The notes beneath the pieces were generated by a model, which made no database searches, had not been told where the DNA came from, and saw nothing but the letters and a program-made list of their open reading frames with translations. From a virus: a stretch of 64,000 bases of DNA. The stretch covers positions 12,710 through 76,709 of IMG/VR virus record IMGVR_UViG_3300040807_001288; one strand, 5' to 3'. Shown here in pieces: positions 37,530 to 57,190 of this stretch. The position numbers and the translations under genes are program-made. The first letter of the stretch is position 1; each line of letters begins with the position of its first letter.

Positions 37530-37945
37530 AACTAACTGAAGCTATTGACGGTATTGAAGAAGCGAAGGGTTCTAAGGAGGGTCGAAAGACATATACCTCC
37601 AAGAAAGGGACCACTCGCGATGTCAAAAAATCTGTCAAGAGTCGAGTTAGAGTTTTCCCTAGCATCAAAGCTGCGCTTGCTAACGCGAACTATGGACAAA
37701 TCTTCAGCACGAAAGCTGCCGGAAGATTGTATGTAGTTTCTAAGGGTAAGTGGGGAGCCAAGAGTGGTCGAGGAAAGATCGCGAAAGGCTTCACCAAGGG
37801 TAGCGCAACTCCATCCGCAGAGTGGGGTAGCGTCAAAAAACATGCTGCGCGTACCATGCTTCGGCATGGCAAGGCTTCTGATAAACTGGCTCAAAAGTAT
37901 GGCAGTCGATCTATCAAGAAAGAAAGAGGATTAAAGTACAAATGA
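37526..37945 (+). CDS. Highly basic protein, possible internal head DNA-binding protein
   Basis: K/R-rich after a short acidic leader MKLTEAIDGIEE. Confidence 0.6.
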   Translation: MKLTEAIDGIEEAKGSKEGRKTYTSKKGTTRDVKKSVKSRVRVFPSIKAALANANYGQIFSTKAAGRLYVVSKGKWGAKSGRGKIAKGFTKGSATPSAEWGSVKKHAARTMLRHGKASDKLAQKYGSRSIKKERGLKYK

Positions 37946-42099: not shown

Positions 42100-42121
42100 T
42101 CTGAATAGATAACAAACTATT

Positions 42122-42161
42122 GAGGGCCAGAGGTTTTTTGTGCCTCTGGCCCTCTTTCTTT
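42122..42161 (+). terminator. Rho-independent terminator after the capsid gene
   Basis: 12-bp stem GAGGGCCAGAGG/CCTCTGGCCCTC followed by TTTCTTT. Confidence 0.85.
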
Positions 42162-42180
42162 CCTATATATTCTAGAAGTT

Positions 42181-42390
42181 ATGTACAAGTACAGAAGTAA
42201 ATGCAGGTGGAATATGCTTCTTCACATCGACGGTAAAGTTGTTGAGATCAGGCCCTCCGAACTATTCGAGTCTAGATCAGAAGTAAGTTCTAGATACCTT
42301 GAGTTGGTCAAAGCACCAATCAAACAAGAGCAAAAGCCAAGAAGAAAGAAAACCTTCAAATTAGATGTCAGCAGCAGCCCCGAAAGTTGA
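42181..42390 (+). CDS. Hypothetical protein
   Basis: 69-aa ORF after the terminator, overlapping the neck gene. Confidence 0.55.
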   Translation: MYKYRSKCRWNMLLHIDGKVVEIRPSELFESRSEVSSRYLELVKAPIKQEQKPRRKKTFKLDVSSSPES

Positions 42391-43246
42391 TCCTAGGTTA
42401 CTAGGTTATGGAGACACCTTTGGTACTTACGCAGGTAGGAACCTTGGTGATACTGATATCTACTCAACGGCTGTAGACACCTCGAAGTTGAACACAGGCG
42501 TCCTGGCAGAGGGTGTTGAACTAAATCAATTCGAGCAAACAATCAAGGATTTCATCCTCGCTAGACTGGGCTACCCAGTCGTTCGCGTAGAGCTTACAGA
42601 CTTCCAAATCAAGTCGGCTATTGATGAGTCCATCACACACTTAGACTACCACGCACCTTTCTGGTGTACTCAAATGGCAGCGTTTGAGACCTCGGCTGGC
42701 GTCAATGCCTACATGCTACCTCTGCATATTGCTCATGGTCTCTCTTACTGCGCCTACAAAAAATCTCTGCTAAGTATTCAAAACATGGCAGGGTCTTTGG
42801 AGTTTGATTTCTTTATTAAATACTTCCAAGACAACTTCTTATTCAGTAACTTCTCTGTATCAGACTTCTACCTTCTTCAGACTCATCTGGAGATGGTTAG
42901 AAAGATACTGAGTCAGGAAGGGTCCTGGGATATTATCAACGGCAATATCCTTCAACTGTACCCAACACCTACTTATACAGGAGAAACTGTTATTCTGGTC
43001 TTTAGGGGCTTGGATACTGCTACCATGCATCCATACTACAAGAACTGGATACAACGATACGCTCTTGCCGTGTCCAAGGGAATCCTTGGTGAGGTTAGAG
43101 GTAAGTATTCTTCTCTCCCTTCGCCAGGGGGTGGAGCTAGTTTAAATGGCGCTGCTCTGAGCCAGCAAAGCGAGCAGGAAAAAGAAAAGCTCAAAGAAGA
43201 GCTTCTATCTGAAATTGAAGAACCACCGACGTTCACATTATTCTAA
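42365..43246 (+). CDS. Neck / head-tail adaptor (gp13-like)
   Basis: LARLGYPVVRVEL, WIQRYALA..K..LGEVRGKY and PGGGASLNG motifs. Confidence 0.9.
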   Translation: MSAAAPKVDPRLLGYGDTFGTYAGRNLGDTDIYSTAVDTSKLNTGVLAEGVELNQFEQTIKDFILARLGYPVVRVELTDFQIKSAIDESITHLDYHAPFWCTQMAAFETSAGVNAYMLPLHIAHGLSYCAYKKSLLSIQNMAGSLEFDFFIKYFQDNFLFSNFSVSDFYLLQTHLEMVRKILSQEGSWDIINGNILQLYPTPTYTGETVILVFRGLDTATMHPYYKNWIQRYALAVSKGILGEVRGKYSSLPSPGGGASLNGAALSQQSEQEKEKLKEELLSEIEEPPTFTLF

Positions 43247-43659
43247 TGAAATATATCAAAAAACTATTATCTGAGCAGACGCGCACCACTGAGCGCGGAG
43301 AGAAGACCAAAGGAATGCCTCGCCCTGCCCAGCAGCCTAACTCTACTAGGACTAAGCCTGACATCAAAAAAAAGGTTGAAATGGCTAGAGAAGTCGGCCC
43401 TAAGAAAGGACAACTTCCTGGTTCCAAGCCAGAGCGGGAAGATTCTCACACAGTCTACAAGCAAATGGGTATGCTTATGGCTGAAGCTCTTGGCCTTGTC
43501 TCAGAGGAAGTAAAGCAAATGCCCCCAGTGGGCAAGTGGAAAAAGCCTGGGGACCTTAGCAAAGAGGCAGAGGAAGCTAGAGCAGCAGGAAAGAAACCAG
43601 CAAAATCTGTGCGGCGTAATCCGAATTCCATTGATTACCCGAAAGGTGGCCGTCCCTGA
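43246..43659 (+). CDS. Basic low-complexity protein, possible internal head protein
   Basis: K/R/P-rich. Shares a YxxxGxxxAEA motif with the protease extension. Confidence 0.6.
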   Translation: MKYIKKLLSEQTRTTERGEKTKGMPRPAQQPNSTRTKPDIKKKVEMAREVGPKKGQLPGSKPEREDSHTVYKQMGMLMAEALGLVSEEVKQMPPVGKWKKPGDLSKEAEEARAAGKKPAKSVRRNPNSIDYPKGGRP

Positions 43660-44237
43660 TGAGCAACAAGAACTACAAGGTAACAACGAAGCTTCCCGAA
43701 CTCCCTGATCTGGATGAGGGTGAGGGGCTTCTGAACCTATTTGATCAGGATAACCCCGACATCAATCTGTTCAACCTTGTAGATGATGAGATGATTCGTC
43801 TTGCTGGCTCAAAGTTTCACTTTTATAAATACTATCAAACTGATGAGTACGATGAGGTTTATATGGAGTCTAGGAATAAGCCTGTATCGAAAACTCCCAT
43901 CATGGTTCACGGTCATTATGATCCTGTGGCTATGAGTGAGGAGCTTACTCAGTTTGGTATTGAATTAAACAACGATCAACTCTTTACTTTTAATAAGAGC
44001 TATATAGAGAGGAAGCTAGGTAGATCTGTCATCCCTGGAGATGTCATCAAGCCTGTCTTCCAAAATCAAAAATACGAGATCTTTGAGGTGGTAGAGGATA
44101 GCTTTGAATCTTATGGAGTTTATCACTTAGTATGCTCTGCCAAGCTCCTCAGAGATTCCGATGACGTTCAAGACACCCCACTTACAAAGGTCAGCGATGA
44201 CCTTGGCGGCTACGGGGGCGACATAGTAGAAATATAA
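43659..44237 (+). CDS. Neck / head closure protein (gp14-like)
   Basis: DEMIRLAG, DEVYME, LTQFGIE, PGDVI and YEIFEV pattern. Follows gp13. Confidence 0.8.
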   Translation: MSNKNYKVTTKLPELPDLDEGEGLLNLFDQDNPDINLFNLVDDEMIRLAGSKFHFYKYYQTDEYDEVYMESRNKPVSKTPIMVHGHYDPVAMSEELTQFGIELNNDQLFTFNKSYIERKLGRSVIPGDVIKPVFQNQKYEIFEVVEDSFESYGVYHLVCSAKLLRDSDDVQDTPLTKVSDDLGGYGGDIVEI

Positions 44238-44247
44238 GGAGATAGTT

Positions 44248-44625
44248 ATGGCAGTTTTACTTGTAGTTTGTAGACCAGATACTCTGGTAAGTTATGATGA
44301 CAACGATATCATTCAGGCACTTGATGCAGAGCAAAGCCCAGGAACAGTTGTGGAGCAGAACGCCCCCACTAGGTTCGAGTTTTGTTACATCACGGATAGA
44401 GAGGTGATTGACTCAGAGATCATGAACTTGATGGTTCCCCTTGAGGAGGAGGATCCTTTGGATCCTTCTGGGCTACCTATCATGGTTGAGAAGCGTAGGT
44501 ACGGTGTGGATCTGTCGTATGATCCAGCGTTCCTAACTTATGCACCTTATGCTACAGCACCAGAAGACATCAAATTTACTTGGGCTGAGTTTGAGCCAAA
44601 AATCATAGACAAAGCGCCAGAGTAG
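44248..44625 (+). CDS. Hypothetical acidic protein
   Basis: AGGAG RBS, 125 aa, directly upstream of the giant gene. Confidence 0.7.
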   Translation: MAVLLVVCRPDTLVSYDDNDIIQALDAEQSPGTVVEQNAPTRFEFCYITDREVIDSEIMNLMVPLEEEDPLDPSGLPIMVEKRRYGVDLSYDPAFLTYAPYATAPEDIKFTWAEFEPKIIDKAPE

Positions 44626-44635
44626 TATATAAGGT

Positions 44636-47600
44636 ATGGCGTTTGTTTATACAAAAACTATAGGTGTAGGTAAAGACTACACTACGTTTACCCTGGCTGA
44701 AGGAGATATAGTAAATATTCCTACATCTCCTGATTTAGTTGCCGAAGACGAGGCTATAGTTTTTGAAGTAGACGCGGGAACCTACAGTGAGTCCACAGTA
44801 TTTTTTGATGCTGCGGTCAGTGGAGACGCTGATCACCAAGTAACTTTCAAGCCCGCTCCAGGCAGTGAGCATAATGGTGAGTTCGGCACAGGTGTAATTA
44901 GAGAGTTTACTGGTGGAGGCACTTACTCATTCGTCACTCAAATGAGTGATCTAGTATTTTCTGGTTTAACCTTCTCTCTGCCTGACAATACTACCTATCT
45001 TCGCAGCTTGCTGATAGGTGAAGGTTCGGGTGTCTTTATTGATTCTTGTTTGTTTGATAATAAAAATAATAGAAACAGCTCAGAAACAGTTACTAATGCG
45101 AATTGGGGAGTAACCTTTAGGAACTGTGTATTCAAGAAGCTGGAAAAGTATTCAGATGTTATAACTTTTACCGCAGGGGCAACTTACGAAGGAAACGCTA
45201 AAGTTATAAACTGTTCTTTCTTGGGAGAGTACATAGGAGAGAGGGCTTTTGCTGTAAACTTTGCTGGCGACCTTACGCTGGAGGTCACCAACTGTATAGG
45301 TGCGATTGATCACGCATGGTATCAGACCGGAACCGGGACGCTTTCACTAACTGGAGGATTTAATTACTTCGGTCATAGTCAAGAAATTCCTGAGGCTATT
45401 CGAGGTCCTCTGCGTAGAATTTTTGCTACTCCTGCGATAACTTGTGAAGATTTCAACGCGATGATTCACAATGTTAGCTCTATGCAGTTATTCGATGTTA
45501 GTGGGCAAAAGATTACTGAGACTTCAGGCGCAGGTCCCTCTGTATCTTCTCTTTCTGTTCCAACCACTGACCTCGTAGGCAATCCGAGATCTGGTGCCAC
45601 CACCCTTCCTGGAGCCTGGGCTACGCTAACTTCTTCTTTAGGTGAGTACAACAATCCTACGGAGGTAATAAAATCCATAGGAACAAATAGTAGAGACTAT
45701 GCTACCATAGAACTTGCTGTTGCTGACATAACAAACGTCGCTGTGGCAGAGTTTGGTGGGCATAGTTTTGCTGGTTACAACGGAAAACTAATTTTTGAAC
45801 TATACAATGACTCTGTTTTTCAGTTAGCTTCGAATATTACTGTGTTTAATAGCACTAGACCTTTTCAGTGTGATCAGACAAGAAATATAACTTTTAGGCC
45901 AGCCGTAGGAGATCAGCACACAGGTATTGGTGGTACAGGTGTGCGGATAATTAATCCTAATTCCCAAAATTCGACGGGCATAACTGCGGGAGAAAACTTT
46001 ATGATTTTCTCTGGGTTGTCATTTGATTCTAATGACAACGGCTTCTCTTTTAATGCGCTTCCTTCTTATTTAAGTCTGATTCATAATTTCCGCTATAATG
46101 TTCACTTACCAATAGCCACCCAAGGAGTTACTTTTGTTAACTGTTTCTTTAATCTTCCTGAGTCTATTGCATCAACTCAATCTAATCTTAATGCACTTCA
46201 ACTAGGGTCTATAGGAAACTTAAGTGATGAGTACCGTAAATATGCTAAGGTAGGCACTGAAACGTACCCAATCATAATAAAAAATAATGTATTTCATAGG
46301 TGTGCTTGTGGATTAAACTCACCTAATTATGACACCGGACCCGATGTTCAGGCGCACTACCATTTAGTTAATAATACGTTAATTAATGATGGAAACATTT
46401 CGACTCAATCTCCGTTAAGAATCGGTGCTGGAGCGTTAGGCAACACTTACGCTCTTACTGCTGTAAATAATTTTATTCTTGTTGGAGAATCGGAGCGGCC
46501 CATAGGTGGATATGGTCCGTCAGCTATTTGCACTTTTGTAGGTTCAAACAATTACGCTTCTAATCCAACCAATAGACCTGCTCTTCCATTACCCCCCTTC
46601 AACGGCACTTATACATGGCCCACTTCACTTCAAGGTAGTCCAAACCCAATACAAAAAACTACTCTCTACGATCCCTCCTCTGTTTCTGGCGCGGGTGACT
46701 ACGGGATCTATGTCAAGAGCCGTGGTATTCTATTAGACAGCCCCCAGAACTCCCTTGTAAGCGGTGGAGTGGGTCCTGACGTAAGTTCTATAGTTCCCAC
46801 GACGGATATCCTAGGCAACCCAAGAACAGGCTCCTCCGTGAACCCAGGGGCGTATGCGAACACTAGTGAGACTGTTAGAGTTGTTAGAAGTTTAGGGCAC
46901 GAAAAAAATTACAGCACATGGAACCTGGGCATAGCTGATATTAGTGACATTTTATTATCTGACACAGAAACTTCAGCTTATGGAACGGACAGCTTACTAG
47001 AAGCTAACTGTGAGTTAGTTTTTGAGGCTTTTAGTTCTACGCCCAGTCAATACGGGGCATACACAAGATTAGATTTACCTTTTTACGACACAGATAAAAC
47101 ACGTCGGCTTCAGCTAAGTGCCACAGCTTCGCAAAGGCATCGAGGTAGGTTTAATACTGGAGTGAGTTTTTATGTAACAAGTAGTCCAGCCATTAGATGC
47201 CGAGGATCAAACTGGACTGTTGATGGTATTTTTATAAATAATGGCACTCCTATTGGAGATGGTTCTGTAGAGCCTACTGCTTTTGCTCCTGGAGATAAAT
47301 GGTTTGAAACATACCCTTACGATAGCGTTGCTTCTGGCGGTCTTTTTGGGATACATTTAAAAAATATATTTGTTAGCAATCCTTATCAAGTCTATTTTAA
47401 CACTGACAATAGGACCGGGGCAAAACGAGCAACTTTTGTTAACTTAAATAATTTAGGTTCAAGAAGCAATCCCATAGTTGTAGAAAATTGTGATTTTTTA
47501 GGAAATTCTCAGGCTGTTGATATTGTTAACAGTCCCACAGGATCAGGCAAAGAAACTCACGTTAGGATTGTTAATTGTAATTTTAATTCTCAGTGGAGAG

Positions 47601-50600
47601 GAGGTCCACACGGACAAACTTTAAGATTCATTGGACGTAATAATATCTATCCTTGTGTTACTTATGCTGATATAGTAAACTGCACTCATACAACAAATAC
47701 AACAAATTCCGTTCCTAGGCCCGACGGATATAATGAAGGGAACGGCACGACACAGGTTCTGGGTGGAGGGGGCGCGGACATATACTACGTCATGAACTCT
47801 GCTACCGAAGAAGAACTTCAAATAACTGGTGGAGGAAACTTGGGGCGATACCTAAGTCCCTCTTCTACCTTACTTAGAAGTTTTGGTGATTACGGTATTG
47901 GAGAAGCGATTCAGCCATCGAATGAATTCGATGGATCTAGTGCGGTATATAGACAACTTCAAGAAAACAACTGGCTTCGTTACTCTCCAAGTTTATATGA
48001 GCCATCAGCAGGGCAGTATCTCGCTGCGGAACGTGCTGAGGAATTATACGATACTGGGGGAGGATTGCTAATAAGCAATACAATGACACTGTTGTCGGGG
48101 ACAGGCAGATCGTTAGCCTCACCACACAATAATGCTGTAGGGAAAGGGCTATCTCATGAGGTTTGCTCTATTGTTCCCACCACAGATATGCTGGGCAACC
48201 CAAGAGATGCGTCTAGTATTTTAGTTGGGCCTTATTCCGTAGGCGAAGAAACGGTAGAAATTGTCCGCACAGTTGGCCCAGGACAGCAATACTCTACGAT
48301 GCCACTAGCAACAGGGGATATTGTAAACATCTGTACCAGTGCCGTTGAGCTATCCGCACAACCAGAACGGTTGGGAACTAATCTTTTCATGACAAACAAA
48401 AGATTAGTCTTTGCTCTTTCAGGAGAGCTTGGACATCTTGACAGTGCAGTCAACACCTATAAAGGTACAGTAGTCACTGATCCAACTAGAAATATAGTTT
48501 TCAGTGGAGTTGATAATCATAACGGTTATCGAGATCAAGGGTCTGTCCTGGCTGGAAGCGGATTCATAGTAAACAACAATATTGAACATACACTCTTTAA
48601 AAATATCCAATTTAAAGACTTAAGGGGCACAGGTGGTGGCTATCAGCTTTTCACCTCCAATCAATTTGAAGAAGAGGGAACGATAGGAACAACATTAGAT
48701 GGTTGTTTGTTTGTTCTTTCTGGAACTTCTAACCCTAGAATTATATCTCAAGGGTACAGGACAAAAGACTGCGGAACATACAGATATCCTTTCACCATTA
48801 AAAATTGTGTCCTAAGGACTGACCCCACACAAAATGTTCAGGGGGGTGTTTTGTATGGGAGCAATGCGGCTAGTGGTCACTTCTTTCATATAGAGCTTAT
48901 TAACAACACGTTTGATATAAAATCTAACGCTTATGCTGTTGGAACTACTTCATTTACAAACTATGATAAAGCCTTAATACGAACAATAAATAATTATAGT
49001 TTTGGTCATGGTAACAGTAACTCTCCAAACTCAAATACCTCTAATGTTTACTATCCAACAACGTCTGGAAACTGGATTAACGGCTATCTACCTGATAGGA
49101 CTTTTGGTGCTGGGACCACAGTTTATGGAGAATCTAGTAATGATAGATGGTCCCTCTCTGCGCTAGAGCCAAGTGCTACAGATAATCCTTACTACTCAGT
49201 GAGGACATCAAACTTTGTAGATTATAAAAACAATCTAATTAATGAAACAAAAGGCGTTGGTCCTGCTTCTAGCACATACATGGGAGTTCTAGTTCCCTCG
49301 GAAGATATTTTAGGTAATCCAAGAACAGGCACCACAACTCTTCCTGGAGCTTATTCCGTTCCCGAATTAAATACTATCAGCAGGAGAATATCAAAAACGG
49401 ACACAGGGCCTGACGTTTATAGTACATTCACGTTGGCTGAGGCCGATATTGTAAACATAGCTACAAGTGCTGTAATAAACGATGAGGTAGTTAATAAAGA
49501 TCTCATTTATCATAACGCTGAAATTGTTTTTGATGTTGATGCTGGCGAGTATGTAGAAGATTTCCGAATAGATCACAGCACCGATATACCACAAAAAGAC
49601 TATGCTCGTAGGATAACCTATACAGCAGCCAGCGATAGCGGACATCAGGGGTACGACAACAGTGGTGTTAGGATTGTGTCTGTTGCTGGTGCGGTTGGAA
49701 ATCACGTTGAAATAAAGGACAGTTATACTACGTTTGATAATTTTGTTATCCATAACATAAATGAATCTCTCACTCAAACAAAAGTTAACTTTACTGTTAA
49801 GTCAGGTCCTGTAGGTGTTATAGTAAAAAATAACATTATAGAAACATTTAATAACAGGCAAGCAGTTAGATTAGGGCAAGACTTTGCGGGCTCTGAGTAT
49901 GAGCCTATAGAAGTTTTTAATAACGTAATCCGAGCAGACAGAAGTAATAATCAATACGCCATATACATATACAATAATAGCAGCGGAGATCTATACACTA
50001 GGTTGTTAAACAACACTGTACTTGGTAACGTAAATATCCCTGCAATAGGCACTGCCGCAGCAACTATAGGAACTTCAGTTGCTCATGAAATGAGTAACAA
50101 CCTCGTTCTAAGTGATCGAGCGACTGCCTTCAACGTCATCCCTACAGGAGAAAACAACTTTGGACCCTCTGTTCAAGCATGGCCCGTTGCCATTCAAGGA
50201 TCTCCCTATCCAATAACACCAACCTTCTCAATCACCGACCCCTCATCCAGCCCATCAACGGACTTTGCGGTGTACATGGGGGTAACTAAAGCTTTAATAG
50301 ATATGTCAGGCAACGCTGTGTGGCAGAAAGGTATGGGACCAGCTTCCAGTACCCTCGTACCTACTACTGACATCTTAGGCAACCCTAGGAGTGGCCTTAC
50401 TGCAAACCCAGGAGCGTTTGAACTAGACGGAAACTTCCCTGTTATAGAGGTTCTAAGAACAATTGGACCGAGTAGAGATTATTCTACGTTTAGTTTGGCT
50501 GAGTCGGATGTTGTAGATATTGCTACTAGCGCCATTGGTGGCGAGGATCTAAGATACTACAACGGAAAAATAAAATTTGAGGCGGACGCGGGGACGTATG

Positions 50601-53600
50601 CGGAGAGCGTGAGCTTCAACAGCTCGTTGACGACGGACGCGACTCGCAACGTCACCTATCGTCCAGCAAGCGGCAGCGAGCACGGGGGGAGCCTTAGCTC
50701 GGGCGTGATTGTGAGTGGCTCCAGTGGAAACACGGCAGGGCTCTACGACGACTTTATCCACTTCGAGGGCATCGTCCTCAAGAGTTCCGCGTCCTACGCC
50801 CTCGCAATCGGCGCGGATGGAGTCACCGTGGACGGTCTAGTTCTGGCAAACACGAACTCGGACGTCGCGATCTTTCAGAATGGCACGGCTCTGAACCCCG
50901 TGCGCTGTCTGAATTGCGTCGCGCACGCGACCAACGGATACGGGTTCTATATCTTCGGGACGAGCACAGCGGCTCACGTTCATCTGGTCAACAGCACGGC
51001 GATCGTCTCCTCCGGCAGCTATGCAATTCGCAACTATGGCAGCGCCGCGAACCTGACGCTAATCAATCACCTCGGGCTCGTGACAAGCGGCGCGGCTTAT
51101 CAAGCAGTCGCAAGCCCGACGATCACGGGGAGCAATTGCTTCTCAACGGGAACTGGCCCTTTCCCCGCCGCCATCCAAGGCTCCCCTTATCCAGTTACTA
51201 CTACGACCAGACTTGATCCTTCTTCTGTTTCTGGTGCTGATGATTATGCAATCTTCCTACCAAGAACAGGTCAGTTGGCTGACGCTGAACAGAACGTGGT
51301 TCTCAGTGGTGGTGTTGGTCCTGCATCTAGCACACTTGTTCCTACTACGGACATTCAAGGCAACCCAAGATCAGGAGCCACAGCTAACCCAGGAGCTTTC
51401 GAGGTCGCTCTACCTCTCACAGAAACCATAAGGACCATTGGAGCTAGTGGACAAGACTACACTACTATATCTCTAGCTCTTGGTGATATGCCTGACATTG
51501 CGCTGAGTGCTTTCGGTAGCACAGACATCGCATCAAAAAACGCTAGGATTACTTTCCATATTGTTCCTGGATCTTATGCTAGAGCTACAAACATCTCTAA
51601 TACAGTTTCGGGTGATTCAGATAGATTTATTACTCTTAGTTCTACTGAGCCTTTAGGTGCTGTAGTAAACAAAGGTTCGATAGCATTTAATGCCTTTACA
51701 TTCGCAGAACCAGCGGAGTATTTTAAATTCAAAGGTATTTATGCTGCTGGAACAGTTGGTGGTTTCGCTGTTGCAAATACCCCCTTCAGAGGGATTACCG
51801 TCGAAAGCTGCTTTCTGGAGACCGAATCGACTCCACAATATGCGGGGTGGCGGGGGCAAGGAGCGGTGGCCTATGCAGGAACTGAAGATGATCCTCTGGT
51901 GCTTATTAACAACATAGGAGCAACTCCTAACCTTGTTCAACTAGAGCATTCTGGCGCAGCTTGCAACGTTAGCGCCGTAAACAACACACTTGTAAAGAAT
52001 TTTGAAGGAAACTATACCAAGGGAATGTTCCATACAGAGCAAGCCGTATCAAATAAGTTCCGCCTGTACAATAACATCAACCTAAATGAGGGAACTGCGG
52101 ACAATCAAGGTTTTGTAAGAATTCAAAACGGAACTATTGATGTGTCGGGTGCGGGGAACGTATCCAAAGTAAACCCCACTCAAGGTGCTGAGGCTCTTGG
52201 AATAGGTGTTGATCTTCCAATCACTAGATCATTATCTCCAGACACCTCTAGTGCTATCTTTGTTGGAACTTCAGGTATCTTGTTCGACAATGCGAACAAC
52301 GAAGCTATTGGACGAGGAGCAAGTTCGTTTGCTCCTACAACTGACATCCTGGGAAACACTAGAGTAGGTAATAACCCAGGTGCTTGGGGCACAACTGTCT
52401 CCTCTGTAGATACATCTACCTTTAGTATAGGTACAAGTGGTAGAGACTTTACCACATTCACACTAGCTAATGCAACTATCGCAGATATGGTGGGATCTAG
52501 TCTTGTTGTAGACAATACTAAAGTAAACTTCGATGTTCATAATGATGATGTTTTCCGTGAGTCGGTTAACTTTGGAACAAACCTAGAGGCTGATGAAGAT
52601 AGATTCATTACATATCAGGCTGCTTCTGGCGATCAACACAACGGCCTTATAGGAACTGGATCCCGCCTAGAGACCAGTGTTGGAGGTCACACGCTTCAAG
52701 ATGATTATACTATTTTTGACGGGTTAGCCTTCGGTTTAGTAGGAGTGCAAAACTCCAAATCGCTTTTCGATCTTACCCAGGACACCAACACTAAAGAAGG
52801 AACTATTTTCCAAAACTGTATATTCTATGATGAAACAGGCAATTCCAACATAGGCATTGATGGAAGAACTAAATATAACCTAGGTTCTCAGACGGACCCC
52901 ATTGAGATAGACAATGGAGTATTCTATAACTTTGCTTTCCCAGTCAGTTATGGATACAATGGAGGCGATAATTTTGAACACAGATTTGAGCTAATTAACT
53001 GCTCTTTCTTAGGCAACGATAGGGCTATTAGAGTTGACCTCAGATCAACTAATAGCACCGTGTATAGTAAGCTTGTAAACCTTCTTGCTTACAACTCTAC
53101 AGTAGCGGATCTGGAAGAAATTTCTGGCGCAGCTACACACTCCACTTTAGGAAGTAGACAAAACTACGGACTCAGAGGAGACTTTCCTGGATTAGGTAGT
53201 AGGAACCCTGTGTCGGGAACGACTGATCTCGATCCACAAACTTCAGGATTCCATGCTATTCATGTTGCGTCGGGTGATCCAACTCCTGCAATTGATAGCG
53301 ACAATGATATACTAAGCCAGGGCATTGGCCCTCTTGTTGTGTCTGATGTTCCTCAGTTTGATATACTAGGAGTAGAGAGGCCACAGACTCAATGTGAGCC
53401 TGGAGCTTTCCAAGTGAGTGGTGGAGGAGTTATAATTCCAGAAAAACCTACCAATCCCTCACCAGCATATGAGGCTACAGATGTTGAGGCTAACCCCACA
53501 ATATCTTGGGTGGACGACCCTGTGACTGCGCCTACTGGTTGGAAGGTTTACTTCTCAACTTCACCCATTTTCACTGAGGCTGATGTTGTACACAGAGGCC

Positions 53601-54481
53601 CCGCTGGATTTAAGCTTGAAGAAGCGTTAGAAGAAAGCACTAATTACTTCTGGAAAGTGGTAAGCACTAAAGATTATGGAGATGCTACCGCTGTCACTAA
53701 TGGCCCCACCTGGGAATTCTTAACATCAAACAGCTTCGTCCCTCCTTCTCCAGATACTCCAGGCAAAAATGAGTCTGTATCTACTGATTGGAGTGCGTCC
53801 TCAGTATTTAGTCGAAGCCGTAGTTGGGGTACTAGGGAGGGGGATGTTCGAGCTAAGATATTCAAGATGACCCAGGCTAAGTCTAACATATCGTTCGTAT
53901 ACAGAGAGTCCTTAAGATCCATGATAGCCTCTTTCAACGATATCGGATACTTTAACTCTGAAGATGCTTTTGTGGATGTTCAATGTGTGCATGGCAACGC
54001 AGAAAGAACCATAGCCAAACTTAAACAAGAAAACAATATCATTCTTCCAATTATATCTGTTTCTCAGACTGTATCGGACAACGATGATGATCGGCGTAGG
54101 TATGAGAGCGTCCTGATTCACGAAAAATATTGGGACGAAGAAATGAATAGAGCCATTAGAATCGTTAGCCTAGCGCCTAGACCTGTAAATATTAAGTATC
54201 AGGTTAATGTTTGGTGCAAGTACATGGCTGATATGGATCAAATCCTTGAACAAATAAGATTGAAATTCAACCCTGAAATGGATATTTACACCACCTACTC
54301 AACGCTTGCAAAGGCTTCTGTAGACAGTGAGGAGGCTGTGGGTAGCATGTCTGCTAAAGATAAAGAAGATAGAGTTATTAAGAAAACACTAAACGTAACT
54401 CTAAAGACGTACATTCCCAGCCCCAAGTTCCTAATAACTTCTACGGGTCAAATCGAAGAGTTTAAAATAAAGACGGACTAA
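44636..54481 (+). CDS. 3281-aa protein: eight beta-helix-like modules, an Ig/FN3-like domain and a C-terminal gp15-like tail terminator
   Basis: Eight TIG..xDY..F.LA starts and eight PTTDILGNPR...PGA ends. The C-terminus has LPIIS and PVNIKYQVNVWCKYMADMDQILEQIRLKFNP (gp15-like). It sits between gp14 and the sheath gene. Confidence 0.78.
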   Translation: MAFVYTKTIGVGKDYTTFTLAEGDIVNIPTSPDLVAEDEAIVFEVDAGTYSESTVFFDAAVSGDADHQVTFKPAPGSEHNGEFGTGVIREFTGGGTYSFVTQMSDLVFSGLTFSLPDNTTYLRSLLIGEGSGVFIDSCLFDNKNNRNSSETVTNANWGVTFRNCVFKKLEKYSDVITFTAGATYEGNAKVINCSFLGEYIGERAFAVNFAGDLTLEVTNCIGAIDHAWYQTGTGTLSLTGGFNYFGHSQEIPEAIRGPLRRIFATPAITCEDFNAMIHNVSSMQLFDVSGQKITETSGAGPSVSSLSVPTTDLVGNPRSGATTLPGAWATLTSSLGEYNNPTEVIKSIGTNSRDYATIELAVADITNVAVAEFGGHSFAGYNGKLIFELYNDSVFQLASNITVFNSTRPFQCDQTRNITFRPAVGDQHTGIGGTGVRIINPNSQNSTGITAGENFMIFSGLSFDSNDNGFSFNALPSYLSLIHNFRYNVHLPIATQGVTFVNCFFNLPESIASTQSNLNALQLGSIGNLSDEYRKYAKVGTETYPIIIKNNVFHRCACGLNSPNYDTGPDVQAHYHLVNNTLINDGNISTQSPLRIGAGALGNTYALTAVNNFILVGESERPIGGYGPSAICTFVGSNNYASNPTNRPALPLPPFNGTYTWPTSLQGSPNPIQKTTLYDPSSVSGAGDYGIYVKSRGILLDSPQNSLVSGGVGPDVSSIVPTTDILGNPRTGSSVNPGAYANTSETVRVVRSLGHEKNYSTWNLGIADISDILLSDTETSAYGTDSLLEANCELVFEAFSSTPSQYGAYTRLDLPFYDTDKTRRLQLSATASQRHRGRFNTGVSFYVTSSPAIRCRGSNWTVDGIFINNGTPIGDGSVEPTAFAPGDKWFETYPYDSVASGGLFGIHLKNIFVSNPYQVYFNTDNRTGAKRATFVNLNNLGSRSNPIVVENCDFLGNSQAVDIVNSPTGSGKETHVRIVNCNFNSQWRGGPHGQTLRFIGRNNIYPCVTYADIVNCTHTTNTTNSVPRPDGYNEGNGTTQVLGGGGADIYYVMNSATEEELQITGGGNLGRYLSPSSTLLRSFGDYGIGEAIQPSNEFDGSSAVYRQLQENNWLRYSPSLYEPSAGQYLAAERAEELYDTGGGLLISNTMTLLSGTGRSLASPHNNAVGKGLSHEVCSIVPTTDMLGNPRDASSILVGPYSVGEETVEIVRTVGPGQQYSTMPLATGDIVNICTSAVELSAQPERLGTNLFMTNKRLVFALSGELGHLDSAVNTYKGTVVTDPTRNIVFSGVDNHNGYRDQGSVLAGSGFIVNNNIEHTLFKNIQFKDLRGTGGGYQLFTSNQFEEEGTIGTTLDGCLFVLSGTSNPRIISQGYRTKDCGTYRYPFTIKNCVLRTDPTQNVQGGVLYGSNAASGHFFHIELINNTFDIKSNAYAVGTTSFTNYDKALIRTINNYSFGHGNSNSPNSNTSNVYYPTTSGNWINGYLPDRTFGAGTTVYGESSNDRWSLSALEPSATDNPYYSVRTSNFVDYKNNLINETKGVGPASSTYMGVLVPSEDILGNPRTGTTTLPGAYSVPELNTISRRISKTDTGPDVYSTFTLAEADIVNIATSAVINDEVVNKDLIYHNAEIVFDVDAGEYVEDFRIDHSTDIPQKDYARRITYTAASDSGHQGYDNSGVRIVSVAGAVGNHVEIKDSYTTFDNFVIHNINESLTQTKVNFTVKSGPVGVIVKNNIIETFNNRQAVRLGQDFAGSEYEPIEVFNNVIRADRSNNQYAIYIYNNSSGDLYTRLLNNTVLGNVNIPAIGTAAATIGTSVAHEMSNNLVLSDRATAFNVIPTGENNFGPSVQAWPVAIQGSPYPITPTFSITDPSSSPSTDFAVYMGVTKALIDMSGNAVWQKGMGPASSTLVPTTDILGNPRSGLTANPGAFELDGNFPVIEVLRTIGPSRDYSTFSLAESDVVDIATSAIGGEDLRYYNGKIKFEADAGTYAESVSFNSSLTTDATRNVTYRPASGSEHGGSLSSGVIVSGSSGNTAGLYDDFIHFEGIVLKSSASYALAIGADGVTVDGLVLANTNSDVAIFQNGTALNPVRCLNCVAHATNGYGFYIFGTSTAAHVHLVNSTAIVSSGSYAIRNYGSAANLTLINHLGLVTSGAAYQAVASPTITGSNCFSTGTGPFPAAIQGSPYPVTTTTRLDPSSVSGADDYAIFLPRTGQLADAEQNVVLSGGVGPASSTLVPTTDIQGNPRSGATANPGAFEVALPLTETIRTIGASGQDYTTISLALGDMPDIALSAFGSTDIASKNARITFHIVPGSYARATNISNTVSGDSDRFITLSSTEPLGAVVNKGSIAFNAFTFAEPAEYFKFKGIYAAGTVGGFAVANTPFRGITVESCFLETESTPQYAGWRGQGAVAYAGTEDDPLVLINNIGATPNLVQLEHSGAACNVSAVNNTLVKNFEGNYTKGMFHTEQAVSNKFRLYNNINLNEGTADNQGFVRIQNGTIDVSGAGNVSKVNPTQGAEALGIGVDLPITRSLSPDTSSAIFVGTSGILFDNANNEAIGRGASSFAPTTDILGNTRVGNNPGAWGTTVSSVDTSTFSIGTSGRDFTTFTLANATIADMVGSSLVVDNTKVNFDVHNDDVFRESVNFGTNLEADEDRFITYQAASGDQHNGLIGTGSRLETSVGGHTLQDDYTIFDGLAFGLVGVQNSKSLFDLTQDTNTKEGTIFQNCIFYDETGNSNIGIDGRTKYNLGSQTDPIEIDNGVFYNFAFPVSYGYNGGDNFEHRFELINCSFLGNDRAIRVDLRSTNSTVYSKLVNLLAYNSTVADLEEISGAATHSTLGSRQNYGLRGDFPGLGSRNPVSGTTDLDPQTSGFHAIHVASGDPTPAIDSDNDILSQGIGPLVVSDVPQFDILGVERPQTQCEPGAFQVSGGGVIIPEKPTNPSPAYEATDVEANPTISWVDDPVTAPTGWKVYFSTSPIFTEADVVHRGPAGFKLEEALEESTNYFWKVVSTKDYGDATAVTNGPTWEFLTSNSFVPPSPDTPGKNESVSTDWSASSVFSRSRSWGTREGDVRAKIFKMTQAKSNISFVYRESLRSMIASFNDIGYFNSEDAFVDVQCVHGNAERTIAKLKQENNIILPIISVSQTVSDNDDDRRRYESVLIHEKYWDEEMNRAIRIVSLAPRPVNIKYQVNVWCKYMADMDQILEQIRLKFNPEMDIYTTYSTLAKASVDSEEAVGSMSAKDKEDRVIKKTLNVTLKTYIPSPKFLITSTGQIEEFKIKTD

Positions 54482-54744
54482 TGCCACTTATCTCAGACGA
54501 AGGAACAGCCGCAACCTGCGGACACCCACAGACGGGCAGCAGTAAGGTATTTGTTGTCGGAAAGGGAGCTTGTCGCGTAGGGGTGGATACTGCTGGAGGA
54601 GTTATACTAGGTCCTGGGGCTCCTAAAGTATTTGTAGAGAATAGCGTTGTTTCCCTGGTCGCAGATAATATCGCTGGACATGGGTTCCTTCCGCACTCAT
54701 CGCCAGTGACTCAGGTAACACAAGATAAAGTGTTTGCTCAGTAA
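54481..54744 (+). CDS. PAAR-like spike tip protein
   Basis: CGH...GSSKVFV, G..KVFVEN and H...PH...KVFA repeats. Confidence 0.8.
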   Translation: MPLISDEGTAATCGHPQTGSSKVFVVGKGACRVGVDTAGGVILGPGAPKVFVENSVVSLVADNIAGHGFLPHSSPVTQVTQDKVFAQ

Positions 54745-54798
54745 AAAAGTTTCACAAAAACCAGCAAGAAAGGGTACATACTAAAGAGAGGATTAGTC

Positions 54799-54975
54799 AT
54801 GAAGGTTGTAAAAAACGATTGTATGCAAACAATTACAGTATACTTCAACACAGAAACGGGGTGTCTTGAAAAGTACATGAAGCCTGGGGAGTCCATTGTG
54901 GTTCCTGAGGCGTACATAACAGAACAGATCAAAACTCTGCACCGTCGCAGAATTTTTAAAATTTCTAACGCTTGA
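54799..54975 (+). CDS. 58-aa hypothetical protein preceding the sheath gene (absent from the ORF track)
   Basis: GAGAGGA RBS, then MKVVKNDCMQTITVYFNTETGCLEKYMKPGESIVVPEAYITEQIKTLHRRRIFKISNA, ending 10 nt before the sheath ATG. Confidence 0.7.
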   Translation: MKVVKNDCMQTITVYFNTETGCLEKYMKPGESIVVPEAYITEQIKTLHRRRIFKISNA

Positions 54976-54985
54976 GGACTAAGTT

Positions 54986-57190
54986 ATGCCTAATTATGTG
55001 AGCCCTGGTGTTTACACCATTGAGAAAGACATTTCCGATTACGCACCTTCGATTAACACATCAATCGTAGGTATTGTTGGTTTCGCCTCTAAAGGACCTA
55101 CCAACAAAGCTACCCTGATTACCGATCAGAACAAGTTGATCAGAACCTTTGGTGAGCCTAGTGAGGATATCGTAGGTCAGGCTCTTGAGGGCGGTCTTGA
55201 AATTCTAGAGACAACGAACTCTCTCTACTTTGTTCGAGCCGCTAACGAGTCTGCTGCTGATGCCTCCGCTACAATGCCTTTAGGAAGCTGCCCTGCGCTA
55301 ATCGTCTCTGGTCCTGATGCGGGCGTTGATGTAGCAAACTGCTTCGGAGGAACAGGCACTGGAGCTAGTGCTCTTACTCTTAGAATTCAAGTCACCGACA
55401 ACGAAGGTGCGGCTCAGTTCACAGACAATGGTGGAGCAGGTAAGGATTTTGTTGTTCCCGTAGGAACTGCTCCATCACAGGCCGCTGCCCTAAGGAGCAT
55501 TATTGGTGGCGCTCTGGATGCTGACAAGGTTGGCGTCTTCGACGATGATGCCGTAGGAACGAGCAACCTGGGTCTGTCTGGAGCAATCGTAGGCAGCTTC
55601 GCTGGATCAGGCGCTACTCTTTCAGTAAGTTCTTGTTCTGGAACAACTTTTGATCCCGCTAAAGGTGCTGATGCACTCAGGCAAGTATATTCGCCTAGTG
55701 CTGGAAGCGCGGGCTTCGGAGCTTCTGGTGATTTAGTATCCGCCATCAAGGTTTTTGGATCTACGTTCATGACCTCGGAGGAAACTGCTGCTACTGGGTG
55801 CTCCTATGACATTGAAAGTCTTTTTCCTGGTACTGGGTACAACGGCGGTGTTAAAACGAACGGAGATACTAGTGGCAACACTATAACTATCAACGGCCTA
55901 GGCTCTCAAAACTTTAGTGTTGTCGTCAACCAAGACGGTGTTGCTGAAGAAACCTTTAAGGGCAGTTTTGTAGGCTCTGGTGTATTCCTTGAGGACGTAA
56001 TTAATACTGGTCAGGATAACCCAACTTCTGAACTAATCAAAGGTAACTTAACAAAAGGTGGGTCCGATGCCACTGCTGCTAGACTTGTTCGTTTTATAGA
56101 CACCGCCGAAACTCTTTTTGGAAGTGGATTGTTCAAAGTTAGGACTAAGGCTATTGTTGGTGGAGGCATCACGGGAGAAGTGGAGTATGCCCCTCTGACC
56201 GATGCTGGAGGTAGATTCGTAAAGCTCGTACAGTCTGCGGCAACTAACCTTGCTGGAGGAACTAACGGAGACGACTCCGATCAAACAACCTCTCTCATAG
56301 GTGATGCCACAGAGGATCCCAAGACGGGTATGCAAGCTCTTGACGATCCGATTCTTAACATCGGTATAGCTTTAGTTCCTGGAGTGTACACGCAAGCTGT
56401 ACAGAATGCTTTAATTACTCTCGCTGAGACCACACAAAACTTCTTGGCGCTGGTTGCACCTCCTCTTGCTATCGGCACAGTTCAAAATGCTATCGACTGG
56501 AGTAACGGAAAGTCCTCTAGCACGGCAGGTTCCAGAACTGCTGCGATCAACAGTTCCTATGCTGCCATCTACTGGCCTCATGTCAAGATTTTCTCTACCT
56601 TCGACGGTAAGGATCGTTTCCTAGATCCTACTATCTTTGCGGCTCGTCAGATGGCCTACACCGATGCGGTTGCCGATAGCTGGTTTGCTCCTGCTGGTTT
56701 CCGTAGAGGTCGCCTCACTAAGCCCTCAGAGACTGAGGTTAAGCTCAACCAAGGCGATAGAGACAGCCTGTACAGCGGAGGTAACGTAATCAACCCCATC
56801 GTTAACTTCCCGCAGCAGGGTATCACTATCTTTGGTCAAAGAACTACTCAAAGAAACCCAACGGCACTCGACCGTATCAATGTCCGCAGACTCATGATCT
56901 ACATTCGTAAGATCATCCTTCTCTCTACGCAGAGATTTGTCTTCGAGCCTAACGACGAGTTTACTTGGGCGCAGATTGAGGGAGTTCTCAACCCCTTCCT
57001 TGATGACATCCGCAGAAGGCGGGGCATCACTGAGTTCCGTGTCGTATGTGACGAGACAGTGAACACTCCAATCAGAGTTGATCGTAACGAACTCTGGACT
57101 AAGGTTCTTGTTAAGCCTACCAAGACTGCTGAGATCCTCATCTTTGAAATTAACCTGACGAACCAGTCGGCTCAGTTAGGAAACCTATAA
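54986..57190 (+). CDS. Tail sheath protein (gp18-like)
   Basis: YVSPGVYTIEKD, WFAPAGFRRG, INPIV, FGQRT, DRINVRRL and FVFEPND motifs. Confidence 0.97.
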   Translation: MPNYVSPGVYTIEKDISDYAPSINTSIVGIVGFASKGPTNKATLITDQNKLIRTFGEPSEDIVGQALEGGLEILETTNSLYFVRAANESAADASATMPLGSCPALIVSGPDAGVDVANCFGGTGTGASALTLRIQVTDNEGAAQFTDNGGAGKDFVVPVGTAPSQAAALRSIIGGALDADKVGVFDDDAVGTSNLGLSGAIVGSFAGSGATLSVSSCSGTTFDPAKGADALRQVYSPSAGSAGFGASGDLVSAIKVFGSTFMTSEETAATGCSYDIESLFPGTGYNGGVKTNGDTSGNTITINGLGSQNFSVVVNQDGVAEETFKGSFVGSGVFLEDVINTGQDNPTSELIKGNLTKGGSDATAARLVRFIDTAETLFGSGLFKVRTKAIVGGGITGEVEYAPLTDAGGRFVKLVQSAATNLAGGTNGDDSDQTTSLIGDATEDPKTGMQALDDPILNIGIALVPGVYTQAVQNALITLAETTQNFLALVAPPLAIGTVQNAIDWSNGKSSSTAGSRTAAINSSYAAIYWPHVKIFSTFDGKDRFLDPTIFAARQMAYTDAVADSWFAPAGFRRGRLTKPSETEVKLNQGDRDSLYSGGNVINPIVNFPQQGITIFGQRTTQRNPTALDRINVRRLMIYIRKIILLSTQRFVFEPNDEFTWAQIEGVLNPFLDDIRRRRGITEFRVVCDETVNTPIRVDRNELWTKVLVKPTKTAEILIFEINLTNQSAQLGNL

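What the first reader, a model, noticed from the sequence alone, without database searches (positions are those of the whole stretch)
44636..54481. Tail terminator (gp15-like) fused to a ~3000-aa array of eight beta-helix-like modules
Seen: one uninterrupted ORF with modules at about 44636, 45660, 46870, 48250, 49370, 50445, 51420 and 52410. Each is bounded by TIG..DY..F.LA and PTTDILGNPR...PGA. An Ig/FN3-like unit (about 53440-53730) and a gp15-like domain (about 53770-54481) follow, with no clear internal RBS plus start. Known: T4 gp15 is a small hexameric ring at the tail top. Inference: six giant multi-specificity glycan-binding or depolymerase arms built covalently into the neck, an architecture I do not recognise.
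Basis: partly seen in the sequence, partly recalled or inferred. Interest (0 to 1): 0.85.

Follow-up and report, generated by a model that had tools for sequence, protein, structure and literature searches.

The report
Tail terminator fused to beta-helix array
An uncultured aquatic T4-like phage makes its tail-capping ring protein (gp15) as one 3,281-residue chain carrying eight different sugar-enzyme-like beta-helix modules, so its neck probably bears six long polysaccharide-recognising arms; this build is not described in the papers I could search, and the arm part is swapped between near-identical phages.

Summary
Window 44636-54481 (+) is one open 3,281-aa frame. It holds eight paralogous modules (21-38% identical), an FN3-like unit, a Pro-rich linker and a C-terminal gp15 domain.

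- **Folds:** module 6 folds with high confidence as a right-handed beta-helix, like polysaccharide lyases, esterases and phage tailspikes. The C-terminus matches T4 gp15 by Pfam, by fold and by gene order.
- **Not an artefact:** contigs from independent metagenome studies bridge the junction. A diverged strain carries only frame-preserving indels. Two related phages carry closed fused genes with 5 and 1 modules.
- **No internal start:** none was found at the point where stand-alone gp15 begins.
- **Swapped cassette:** a phage 97-99% identical in the upstream flank shares no DNA across 44215-53830.
- **Partner gene:** the small upstream gene (o125) precedes such arrays in 19 other viral loci. 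There the arrays end in other tail anchors, such as a podovirus nozzle.
- **Wider pattern:** about 46% of cluster representatives in this gp15 clade carry N- or C-terminal extensions.

Best reading: gp15 is a covalent neck anchor for six polysaccharide-recognising arms. Stoichiometry, activity and host are inferred, not shown. I rate it a new variant of a known kind. Elsewhere this scan noted only a triple-gp15 fusion, not this architecture.

The parts
44248..44625 (+). o125: a small acidic 125-aa protein of no known family, the conserved upstream partner of beta-helix arrays
   Evidence: No Pfam, PHROG or NCBIfam hit. Homologues at 33-41% identity sit directly upstream of module arrays in L002, L007 and L082-L098, and are absent where gp15 stands alone. 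The complex model supports binding to the module N-cap.
44636..54481 (+). Giant gene: eight beta-helix modules + FN3-like unit + linker + gp15 tail terminator (3,281 aa)
44636..45640 (+). beta-helix module 1 (aa 1-335), the presumed far tip of the arm
45641..46876 (+). beta-helix module 2 (aa 336-747)
46877..48256 (+). beta-helix module 3 (aa 748-1207), the longest and most diverged
48257..49375 (+). beta-helix module 4 (aa 1208-1580)
49376..50440 (+). beta-helix module 5 (aa 1581-1935)
50441..51421 (+). beta-helix module 6 (aa 1936-2262), the module that was folded
   Evidence: AF2 pLDDT 94, pTM 0.93. VIA Z 17-21.5 to polysaccharide lyases, esterases and tailspikes. Foldseek E 1e-5 to 1xg2.
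50600..51150 (+). GC-rich (about 60%) core of module 6, an exchanged sub-cassette
   Evidence: Composition. In run X15 a contig replaces 50593-51179 with 600 other letters, and other contigs cover this core at much higher depth.
51422..52411 (+). beta-helix module 7 (aa 2263-2592)
52412..53431 (+). beta-helix module 8 (aa 2593-2932)
53432..53767 (+). FN3/Ig-like unit followed by a Pro-rich linker (aa 2933-3044)
   Evidence: Homologous units in L007, L008, L097, P0005 and P0008. Only weak FN3 hits. Low AF2 confidence.
53768..54478 (+). gp15 tail terminator / sheath stabiliser domain (aa 3045-3281)
   Evidence: PF16724 51 bits. AF2 pLDDT about 90 over aa 3063-3281. Foldseek top hits are T4 gp15. 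Gene order matches relatives.
44215..53830 (.). Variable cassette (o125 + whole N-terminal extension) between conserved flanks
   Evidence: Against L002 the window is 99.3% identical over 41498-43506 and 97.5% over 43660-44214. No similarity follows until 53830, then 87.7%.

Best explanation
The gene encodes this phage's only detected tail terminator (gp15), with its N-terminus extended by about 3,045 residues.

Shown:
- The frame is open and maintained.
- The C-terminal 220-240 aa is a bona fide gp15 domain sitting in the gp15 position: gp23 - gp13 - o192 - [o125] - gp15 - PAAR-like - gp18 - gp19.
- The extension is eight diverged right-handed beta-helix modules plus an FN3-like unit and a Pro-rich linker.
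- The extension, together with the small gene o125, is a cassette that differs completely between otherwise near-identical phages.

Inferred:
- gp15 forms the hexameric ring on top of the tail, as in T4. Six chains would then each project a beads-on-a-string arm from the neck. I estimate roughly 40-50 nm from about 8 x 5-6 nm per helix; this was not measured.
- The arms bind, and some modules may cut, surface or extracellular polysaccharides. That would give multivalent, multi-specific first contact with host capsule/EPS or with polysaccharide-rich particles.
- The conserved N- and C-terminal motifs of each module are structural caps, and the variable helix faces carry specificity.
- o125 is predicted to dock on the conserved N-cap of a module. 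It would then act as a tip cap or folding helper at the free, far end of the arm.
For: ORF and modules.

gp15 identity:
- Pfam 44-51 bits against a cut-off of 25.
- Solved-structure profile hits 4huh and 3j2m at E about 7e-10.
- Fold hits 9mkb_AB E 3e-10, then 4huh and 4hud.
- Only one gp15 match in this 76.7-kb record, and one in each of four related records.
- Gene order is conserved in 13 related loci.

beta-helix fold: AF2 pLDDT 94. VIA Z 21.5 (rmsd 3.9, 252 aligned) to 5mqp. Z 18-20 to alginate and rhamnogalacturonan lyases, pectin methylesterases, Pel9A, PL6, Acinetobacter phage Fri1 depolymerase 6c72 and cyanophage Pam1 tailspike 7eea. BFVD rank 2 is a lactococcal neck passage structure.

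The fusion is genuine:
- Independent contigs bridge the junction: X4 51177-53938 with 2 differences, X5 52543-54076 with 0, X9 51872-53914 with 69.
- All indels in the diverged X9 strain keep the frame.
- The stretch occurs in 15 runs of 10 studies besides the possible source samples.
- Closed fused ORFs exist in L002 (1,982 aa, 5 modules) and L007 (716 aa, 1 module).

No internal start.

The termini tolerate cargo: of 106 cluster representatives with a near-complete domain, 22 carry N-terminal and 27 carry C-terminal extensions. These include PKD arrays, penicillin-amidase-like and DUF4832 domains.

Cassette swap.

The array is portable cargo and its C-terminal domain looks like the anchor: 17 other loci carry o125 plus 1-6 modules. 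Those characterised end in a Phage_nozzle C-terminus (PF25675, E 2e-38 to 2e-40), a minor-tail-protein region or unassigned tails.

o125-module complex model: ipSAE 0.73 (runs 0.73, 0.78, 0.00), best of 3 controls 0.01. That mark was reached by 58 of 80 solved complexes and 2 of 110 mismatched pairs. The runs agree in at least 0% of contacts, and the partner's pLDDT is at least 31. The interface is module residues 7-27 with o125 residues 22-35.
Against: - No virion, proteome or expression data exist. The phage is uncultured and its host is unknown.
- The position of the gp15 N-terminus in the ring was not examined. Outward projection is inferred only from the tolerance of extensions.
- No catalytic constellation is conserved across modules. 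The invariant residues are Asn-ladder and cap positions, so enzymatic activity is unsupported.
- Binding is inferred from fold alone. The modules match no Pfam or NCBIfam family above cut-off.
- Only module 6 was folded.
- The record is about 67% complete, so a second, short gp15 elsewhere cannot be formally excluded.
- One of the three complex runs failed.
Confidence: 0.65

Rival explanations
1. The modules are active depolymerases or esterases. The neck would carry an eight-enzyme battery that digests capsule, EPS or gel matrix, rather than acting mainly as an adhesin.
For: The nearest folds are nearly all enzymes: GH, PL6, PL9, CE8 and phage capsule depolymerases, at Z 17-21. Other gp15 fusions carry enzyme-like domains, penicillin amidase at E 2e-45 and DUF4832.
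Against: No acidic or basic catalytic set is conserved among 36 aligned modules; only ladder and cap residues are invariant. Identity to any enzyme is 9-16%. CE8 motifs other than the common G-x-Y-x-E first rung were not seen by eye. Fold alone does not show activity.
Confidence: 0.3
2. The arms do not target the host. They tether the virion to polysaccharide-rich particles, gels or mucus, as proposed for Ig-like Hoc decorations, and so raise the rate of encounters with hosts.
For: Other members of the clade carry PKD, Ig and TIG arrays on gp15. This domain class is linked from general knowledge to weak carbohydrate adherence. The habitats are estuary, marsh and freshwater, which are rich in particles.
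Against: The complete swap of the cassette between 97-99% identical phages looks like host-range-type diversifying exchange. The same modules are fused to nozzle and minor tail proteins at the host-contact end of other phages.
Confidence: 0.2
3. Mixed rings: a short gp15 is also made from an internal start such as M3078, so only some of the six positions carry an arm.
For: An in-frame ATG at 53867 lies 9 aa before the point where the Pfam gp15 model begins. A purine-rich run lies 24-32 nt upstream of it.
Against: That Met and the purine-rich codons (T-R-E-G-D) are conserved in stand-alone gp15 too, so they are explained by protein conservation. The spacing is too long for a Shine-Dalgarno site. 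The conserved 30 aa upstream would be lost. The TATAAGG motif that precedes five gene starts in this window, including o125, this gene and the tube gene, does not occur on the + strand inside the ORF.
Confidence: 0.1
4. The chain is cleaved after assembly or folding, in the Pro-rich linker. That would free the array, or leave it attached non-covalently, with gp15 serving only as a co-translational partner.
For: A disordered Pro/Ser-rich linker lies between the FN3-like unit and gp15. The phage encodes a gp21-type protease.
Against: gp21-type proteases act inside proheads, not on tails (general knowledge). No cleavage motif was identified. The linkers differ completely among relatives, e.g. Glu-Gly repeats in L006 and L008.
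Confidence: 0.07
5. Artefact: an assembly chimera, a missed stop or a decaying pseudogene.
For: Metagenome-derived record. Long repetitive genes are prone to misassembly.
Against: Independent assemblies from other studies bridge the junction and most of the gene. Indels in a diverged strain preserve the frame. DNA repeats are short and only 60-80% identical. Fused relatives exist in other samples.
Confidence: 0.02

Closest known systems
Bacteriophage T4 gp15 tail terminator / sheath stabiliser (Pfam PF16724; PDB 4HUD, 4HUH, 9MKB)
   Same: Same family by Pfam, by profile search and by fold. Same gene position between the neck genes and the sheath gene. The C-terminus ends in beta-strands, as expected for sheath capping (PMC12929629 for the T4 role).
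   Different: T4 gp15 is 272 aa and has no appendage. Here about 3,045 residues of unrelated domains precede the domain.
Neck fibres, collars and whiskers of myophages (T4 fibritin; Bas63/Sf14 and XM1 collar-whisker; Anabaena phage A-1(L) neck fibres)
   Same: Fibrous appendages radiating from the head-tail junction (PMC12609058, PMC10966104).
   Different: Those are separate proteins docked non-covalently on adaptor or collar rings, built from coiled coils or Ig-like beads. Here the fibre is the terminator's own chain and is built from beta-helices.
Lactococcal 936-group neck passage structure and other virion carbohydrate-binding modules
   Same: Saccharide-recognising domains placed at the neck of a tailed phage (PMC6669499). 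A neck passage structure model is the second-best BFVD fold match of module 6.
   Different: That is a siphophage accessory protein with one or a few modules, not fused to the terminator.
Phage tailspike depolymerases (Fri1 gp49 6C72, Pam1 tailspike 7EEA, Klebsiella K1 lyase 7W1C)
   Same: Right-handed parallel beta-helix, Z 17-19.
   Different: Tailspikes are trimers with one helix per chain, mounted on the baseplate or tail tip. Here eight different helices are strung in one chain and anchored at the opposite end of the tail. No sequence-level relation was found.
Ig-like, PKD and FN3 decorations appended to phage structural proteins (Hoc, major tail protein extensions)
   Same: Accessory domains added to an essential structural protein, and variable among close relatives (general knowledge; PMC13370021 for modular phage adhesins). 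gp15 relatives with PKD arrays fit this class.
   Different: Scale (3 kDa-class domains versus a ~330-kDa extension), domain type (enzyme-like beta-helix) and carrier (tail terminator).
Bacterial choice-of-anchor Q / beta-helix surface proteins (NCBIfam NF041518)
   Same: The C-terminal cap motif D-[IL]-x-G-x-x-R...G-A-[FYW]-E gives weak hits in modules 6-8 (E 0.02-0.07, 13-15 bits).
   Different: Below the 25-bit cut-off, so not members. No relatives were found in 185,579 species genomes with the pattern scan.

Membership tests
T4-gp15_tss (PF16724), tail terminator | Sequence match above Pfam's gathering score | tested here: met
   44.2 bits on the whole protein and 51.2 bits on the domain alone, against a cut-off of 25. 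PHROG 227 tail sheath stabilizer, E 3.7e-8.
T4-gp15_tss (PF16724), tail terminator | gp15 / tube-like fold | tested here: met
   AF2 pLDDT about 90 over aa 3063-3281. Foldseek 9mkb_AB E 3.1e-10 (TM by target 0.49), 4huh and 4hud E about 1e-8 (TM 0.53-0.56), followed by other myophage and CIS terminators.
T4-gp15_tss (PF16724), tail terminator | Gene position between neck proteins and sheath/tube genes; single copy | tested here: met
   The order gp13 - o192 - gp15 - o87 - gp18 - gp19 is conserved in 13 loci. One match in this record and one in each of four related records. The record is only about 67% complete.
T4-gp15_tss (PF16724), tail terminator | Hexameric ring capping the sheath and binding the gp14-like neck protein | not testable with these tools
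   A six-copy model exceeds the size limit of the complex tool. Inferred from homology (PMC12929629).
Right-handed parallel beta-helix (pectin-lyase-like fold) | Three-faced parallel helix with an Asn ladder and capped ends | tested here: met
   Module 6 model pLDDT 94, with short strands in regular periods. Z 17-21.5 to more than 50 beta-helix entries. Asn positions are invariant across 36 modules. The other seven modules are assigned by homology only.
Pectin methylesterase CE8 / polysaccharide lyase PL6, PL9 (enzyme families) | Family sequence signature and catalytic residues | tested here: not met
   No Pfam or NCBIfam family reaches its cut-off (best is Beta_helix, 13 bits against 25.9). 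Identity is 9-16%. No conserved catalytic set appears among the modules. The modules work like these enzymes only at fold level.
Fibronectin type III / Ig-like domain | Significant match to an FN3 or Ig family, or a confident beta-sandwich model | tested here: inconclusive
   The profile of four homologues gives FN3con E 0.072 and neogenin FN3 E 0.11-0.3. Pfam gives Ig_Rha78A_N at E 0.23. AF2 pLDDT is 33-57 in this part.
Trimeric phage tailspike | One beta-helix per chain, N-terminal particle-binding domain, trimerisation | tested here: not met
   There are eight helices per chain and the anchor is C-terminal. Oligomeric state was not tested.

The most novel reading that the evidence does not exclude
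gp15 in a large uncultured aquatic T4-like clade is a general display platform, and 'o125 + beta-helix array' is a mobile plug-in cassette. The cassette can be grafted onto different six-fold tail ring proteins: the terminator in myophages, a nozzle C-terminus in podophages, and minor tail proteins. It is exchanged wholesale, or one module core at a time, between near-identical phages. This would be a modular host-range or adhesion system located at the neck rather than the baseplate, with o125 capping the free tip of each arm.
Probability: 0.45. Interest if true: 0.8.

Novelty: new variant of a known kind. Interest (0 to 1): 0.72.

Why it matters
Tail terminators are treated as small, invariant assembly parts, and receptor-binding diversity is sought at the baseplate.

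- A terminator carrying a ~330-kDa, eight-specificity extension would move part of the adsorption machinery to the neck. So would the finding that nearly half of the cluster representatives in this clade are extended at one end or the other.
- It would also give a ready marker for hypervariable host-interaction cassettes in uncultured aquatic phages.
- The conserved caps with variable cores, and the portable o125 partner, suggest a natural scaffold for swapping glycan specificities.
- The modules form a large beta-helix family with no family assignment in Pfam, NCBIfam or PHROGs.

Tried and rejected
**No close relative in named collections**
- GenBank phages: no DNA match. Only one weak gp15 protein match, to an uncultured 595-kb phage. 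No match for module 5. The sheath is at most 37% identical to any cultured phage.
- Pattern scan of species genomes with module 6: no relatives, so no host clue.

**No family assignment**
- Pfam, NCBIfam and PHROGs give nothing above cut-off for the modules or for o125.
- The ESM Atlas gives nothing usable for o125 (best score 0.75; the Atlas's own model has pLDDT 0.33).
- The FN3 assignment stayed sub-significant.

- One frame error in a reference was corrected.
- The complex model's third run scored 0.00 with partner pLDDT 31.

**Read laying**
- No single listed contig spans the whole gene.
- Some bins have no cover in X4 or X15. I draw nothing from those holes.
- A joint 44214 -> 50603 in X15 has only a 30-letter side, and I do not interpret it.

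**Literature**
- Six full-text searches found no description of an extended or fused gp15.
- Fokine et al. 2013 on the T4 neck did not turn up in my full-text search, so I did not establish where the gp15 N-terminus lies.

**Internal start**
- Considered and judged unlikely.
Full report
**What is there**

Window 44636-54481 (+) is one ATG-initiated frame of 3,281 codons with no stop.
- A motif scan finds eight copies of the C-terminal motif P-T-T-D-I-L-G-N-P-R...P-G-A. A strict pattern finds six copies of the N-terminal motif I-G..D-Y.T..L-A. The other two are visible in the alignment.
- The eight modules (aa 1-335, 336-747, 748-1207, 1208-1580, 1581-1935, 1936-2262, 2263-2592, 2593-2932) align end to end. 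They are 22-31% identical to module 1 and share invariant Asn positions.
- At DNA level only the two border motifs recur, at 60-80% identity. The array is therefore not a recent duplication and is not prone to repeat misassembly.
- After the modules come a conserved unit of about 100 aa, a Pro-rich linker and a gp15 domain (PF16724, 44-51 bits against a cut-off of 25).

**Context**

The window is part of a 76.7-kb IMG/VR virus record judged about 67% complete. By my arithmetic that implies a genome near 115 kb.
- The neighbours are T4-type: gp21 protease, gp23 capsid protein, a gp13-like adaptor, two small conserved proteins, o125, the giant gene, an 87-aa PAAR-like protein, gp18 sheath and gp19 tube.
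- A gp6-like baseplate wedge and several large unassigned ORFs lie upstream. The phage therefore probably also has conventional distal fibres.
- No cultured phage is close.

**Folds**

With 36 homologous modules as the alignment, module 6 folds at pLDDT 94 and pTM 0.93 into a regular right-handed beta-helix with a helical N-cap.
- Foldseek ranks pectin methylesterases, Pel9A and PL6 lyases first.
- VIA-align gives Z 21.5 (rmsd 3.9 A, 252 aligned) to glycoside hydrolase 5mqp. It gives Z 18-20 to alginate and rhamnogalacturonan lyases, methylesterases, Acinetobacter phage depolymerase 6c72 and the cyanophage Pam1 tailspike.
- Among predicted viral structures, the second hit is a lactococcal neck passage structure.
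- The C-terminal 220 aa fold at about pLDDT 90. Their best matches are T4 gp15 in the 2025 neck complex (9mkb_AB, E 3e-10) and the gp15 crystal structures, followed by other myophage and injection-system terminators. A profile search of solved structures agrees.
- The unit before the linker is FN3-like only weakly.

**Is the fusion real?**

The junction stretch is near-identical in 18 runs of 13 studies from estuary, freshwater, marsh and salt-marsh samples (2017-2024). Three of those samples may be the source of this record.

Contigs from four other studies were laid on 43600-55200.
- X4 has one contig over 51177-53938 with 2 differences.
- X5 has one over 52543-54076 with none.
- X9, a strain a few percent diverged, has one over 51872-53914.
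- All three bridge module 8, the FN3-like unit and the start of gp15.
- Within the gene, the indels seen in X9 are a 3-nt loss and two compensating +1/-1 pairs. This is the pattern expected for a coding frame under selection.

Among 80 IMG/VR loci whose gp15 is 48-81% identical:
- L002, the closest, has a closed 1,982-aa gene with five modules.
- L007 has a closed 716-aa gene with one module.

The fused forms have exactly one gp15 match per record.

**Internal start**

Stand-alone relatives begin (M-A-E-F...) at a point equal to about aa 3036 here.
- This gene has no ATG, GTG or TTG in frame between aa 3008 and 3078.
- M3078 is a conserved internal residue in stand-alone proteins as well. It is preceded by the conserved T-R-E-G-D-V-R-A-K-I-F-K segment.
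- The TATAAGG motif lies within 16 nt of five gene starts in this window, including o125, this gene and the tube gene. It does not occur on the + strand inside the ORF.

A dedicated short gp15 is therefore unlikely, though not excluded.

**A swapped cassette with a partner gene**

Most close relatives (about 60 of 80) have a 245-aa stand-alone gp15 directly after o192.
- The window and L002 are 99.3% identical over 41498-43506 and 97.5% over 43660-44214. They share nothing from 44215 to 53830, then resume at 87.7% inside the gp15 domain.
- The exchanged block is o125 plus the whole extension.
- The window's modules are no closer to each other (21-38%) than to modules of other phages, and none is orthologous to an L002 module.
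- Module 6 has a 60% GC core (50600-51150) within 36-51% GC flanks. In run X15 a contig replaces 50593-51179 with 600 other letters, and other contigs cover that core at far higher depth. Exchange therefore also happens at the level of single module cores.

Searching IMG/VR with a single-module protein gave 17 more loci that share no other gene with this phage.
- Each carries an array of up to six modules directly preceded by an o125 homologue.
- Among the eight array proteins whose C-terminal ends I examined, the ends differ: three are a Phage_nozzle C-terminus (PF25675), one is a minor-tail-protein region, and the others are unassigned. None of the 17 loci carries gp15.
- This fits a portable cargo with a C-terminal, phage-specific virion anchor.

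A complex model of o125 with module 1 supports binding.
- ipSAE was 0.73 (runs 0.73, 0.78, 0.00), with the best of 3 controls at 0.01.
- That mark was reached by 58 of 80 solved complexes and 2 of 110 mismatched pairs.
- The runs agree in at least 0% of contacts, and the partner's pLDDT is at least 31.
- The interface is the conserved module N-cap (residues 7-27) against the conserved P-G region of o125.
- This is a model's confidence, not a measurement.

**gp15 as a platform**

Scoring the gp15 domain against 1.84 billion cluster representatives gave 186 relatives. Of the 106 with a near-complete domain:
- 56 stand alone.
- 22 have N-terminal extensions of 114-2,878 aa.
- 27 have C-terminal extensions of 174-2,438 aa.
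- One is a triple gp15.

The extensions include PKD arrays, Ig-like and TIG domains, a penicillin-amidase-like domain and DUF4832. Representatives may be biased toward long sequences, and some are fragments, so the fraction is rough.

**Mechanism**

In T4, six gp15 subunits cap the tail. Their C-terminal strands extend the sheath's C-terminal sheet, and the ring docks to gp14 (PMC12929629).
- By homology, six chains here would each carry an arm attached through a disordered Pro-rich linker.
- With about 5-6 nm per helix, an arm of eight modules would be about 40-50 nm long. That is an estimate.
- The diverged helix faces, the CAZyme and tailspike fold neighbours and the wholesale cassette exchange point to polysaccharide recognition for adsorption.
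- Whether any module is catalytic is open, because only structural residues are conserved.

**Novelty**

Neck fibres, collars, whiskers and neck-borne carbohydrate-binding modules are known as separate proteins (PMC12609058, PMC10966104, PMC6669499).
- I found no description of a terminator extended in this way.
- This scan previously noted only a triple-gp15 fusion on other DNA.
- I class it as a new variant of a known kind.

Noticed in passing
P0002 (760 aa): A relative encodes three complete gp15 domains in tandem in one chain (aa 31-249, 278-509, 539-758).
   Followed up: partly
window 50600-51150: The core of module 6 is about 60% GC, against 36-51% around it. A contig of run X15 replaces 50593-51179 with 600 other letters. 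Other contigs cover this core at 31x (X4) and 174x (X5), against about 5-10x for the rest of the gene.
   Followed up: partly
window 54481-54744 (+): An 87-aa PAAR-like protein (PHROG 281, E 6e-5; weak T6SS_PAAR) is encoded between gp15 and the sheath gene. Its start overlaps the gp15 stop, and it is conserved in most relatives.
   Followed up: partly
P0038, P0014, P0020, P0035, P0083: Other gp15 relatives are fused to a penicillin-amidase-like domain (E 2e-45), to DUF4832, to 11 PKD repeats or to HYDIN-type Ig arrays. The extension is N-terminal in some and C-terminal in others.
   Followed up: partly
L091:2587-5310, L092:3237-5852, L093:2574-5303: Two beta-helix modules are fused to only the last ~200 residues of a podovirus nozzle protein (PF25675 positions 586-790 of 794). 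Each is preceded by an o125 homologue.
   Followed up: partly
window 40447-42099 and 37942-39711 (+): The gp23 capsid protein is 550 aa, with the Pfam match split in two stretches (an insertion). The gp21-type protease is 589 aa, with a C-terminal extension of about 390 aa.
   Followed up: no
window 44233, 44628, 57186, 57865, 9864 (+): TATAAGG lies a few bases before the start codons of several structural genes. It may be a combined late-promoter and ribosome-site element. Its total count is not above chance (7 found, about 10 expected).
   Followed up: partly
window 43246-43659 and 54986-57190 versus L002: Between two phages with 99-100% identical gp23 and gp13, the 137-aa protein is only 78% identical and the sheath N-terminus 87%. 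Variability therefore extends beyond the cassette.
   Followed up: no
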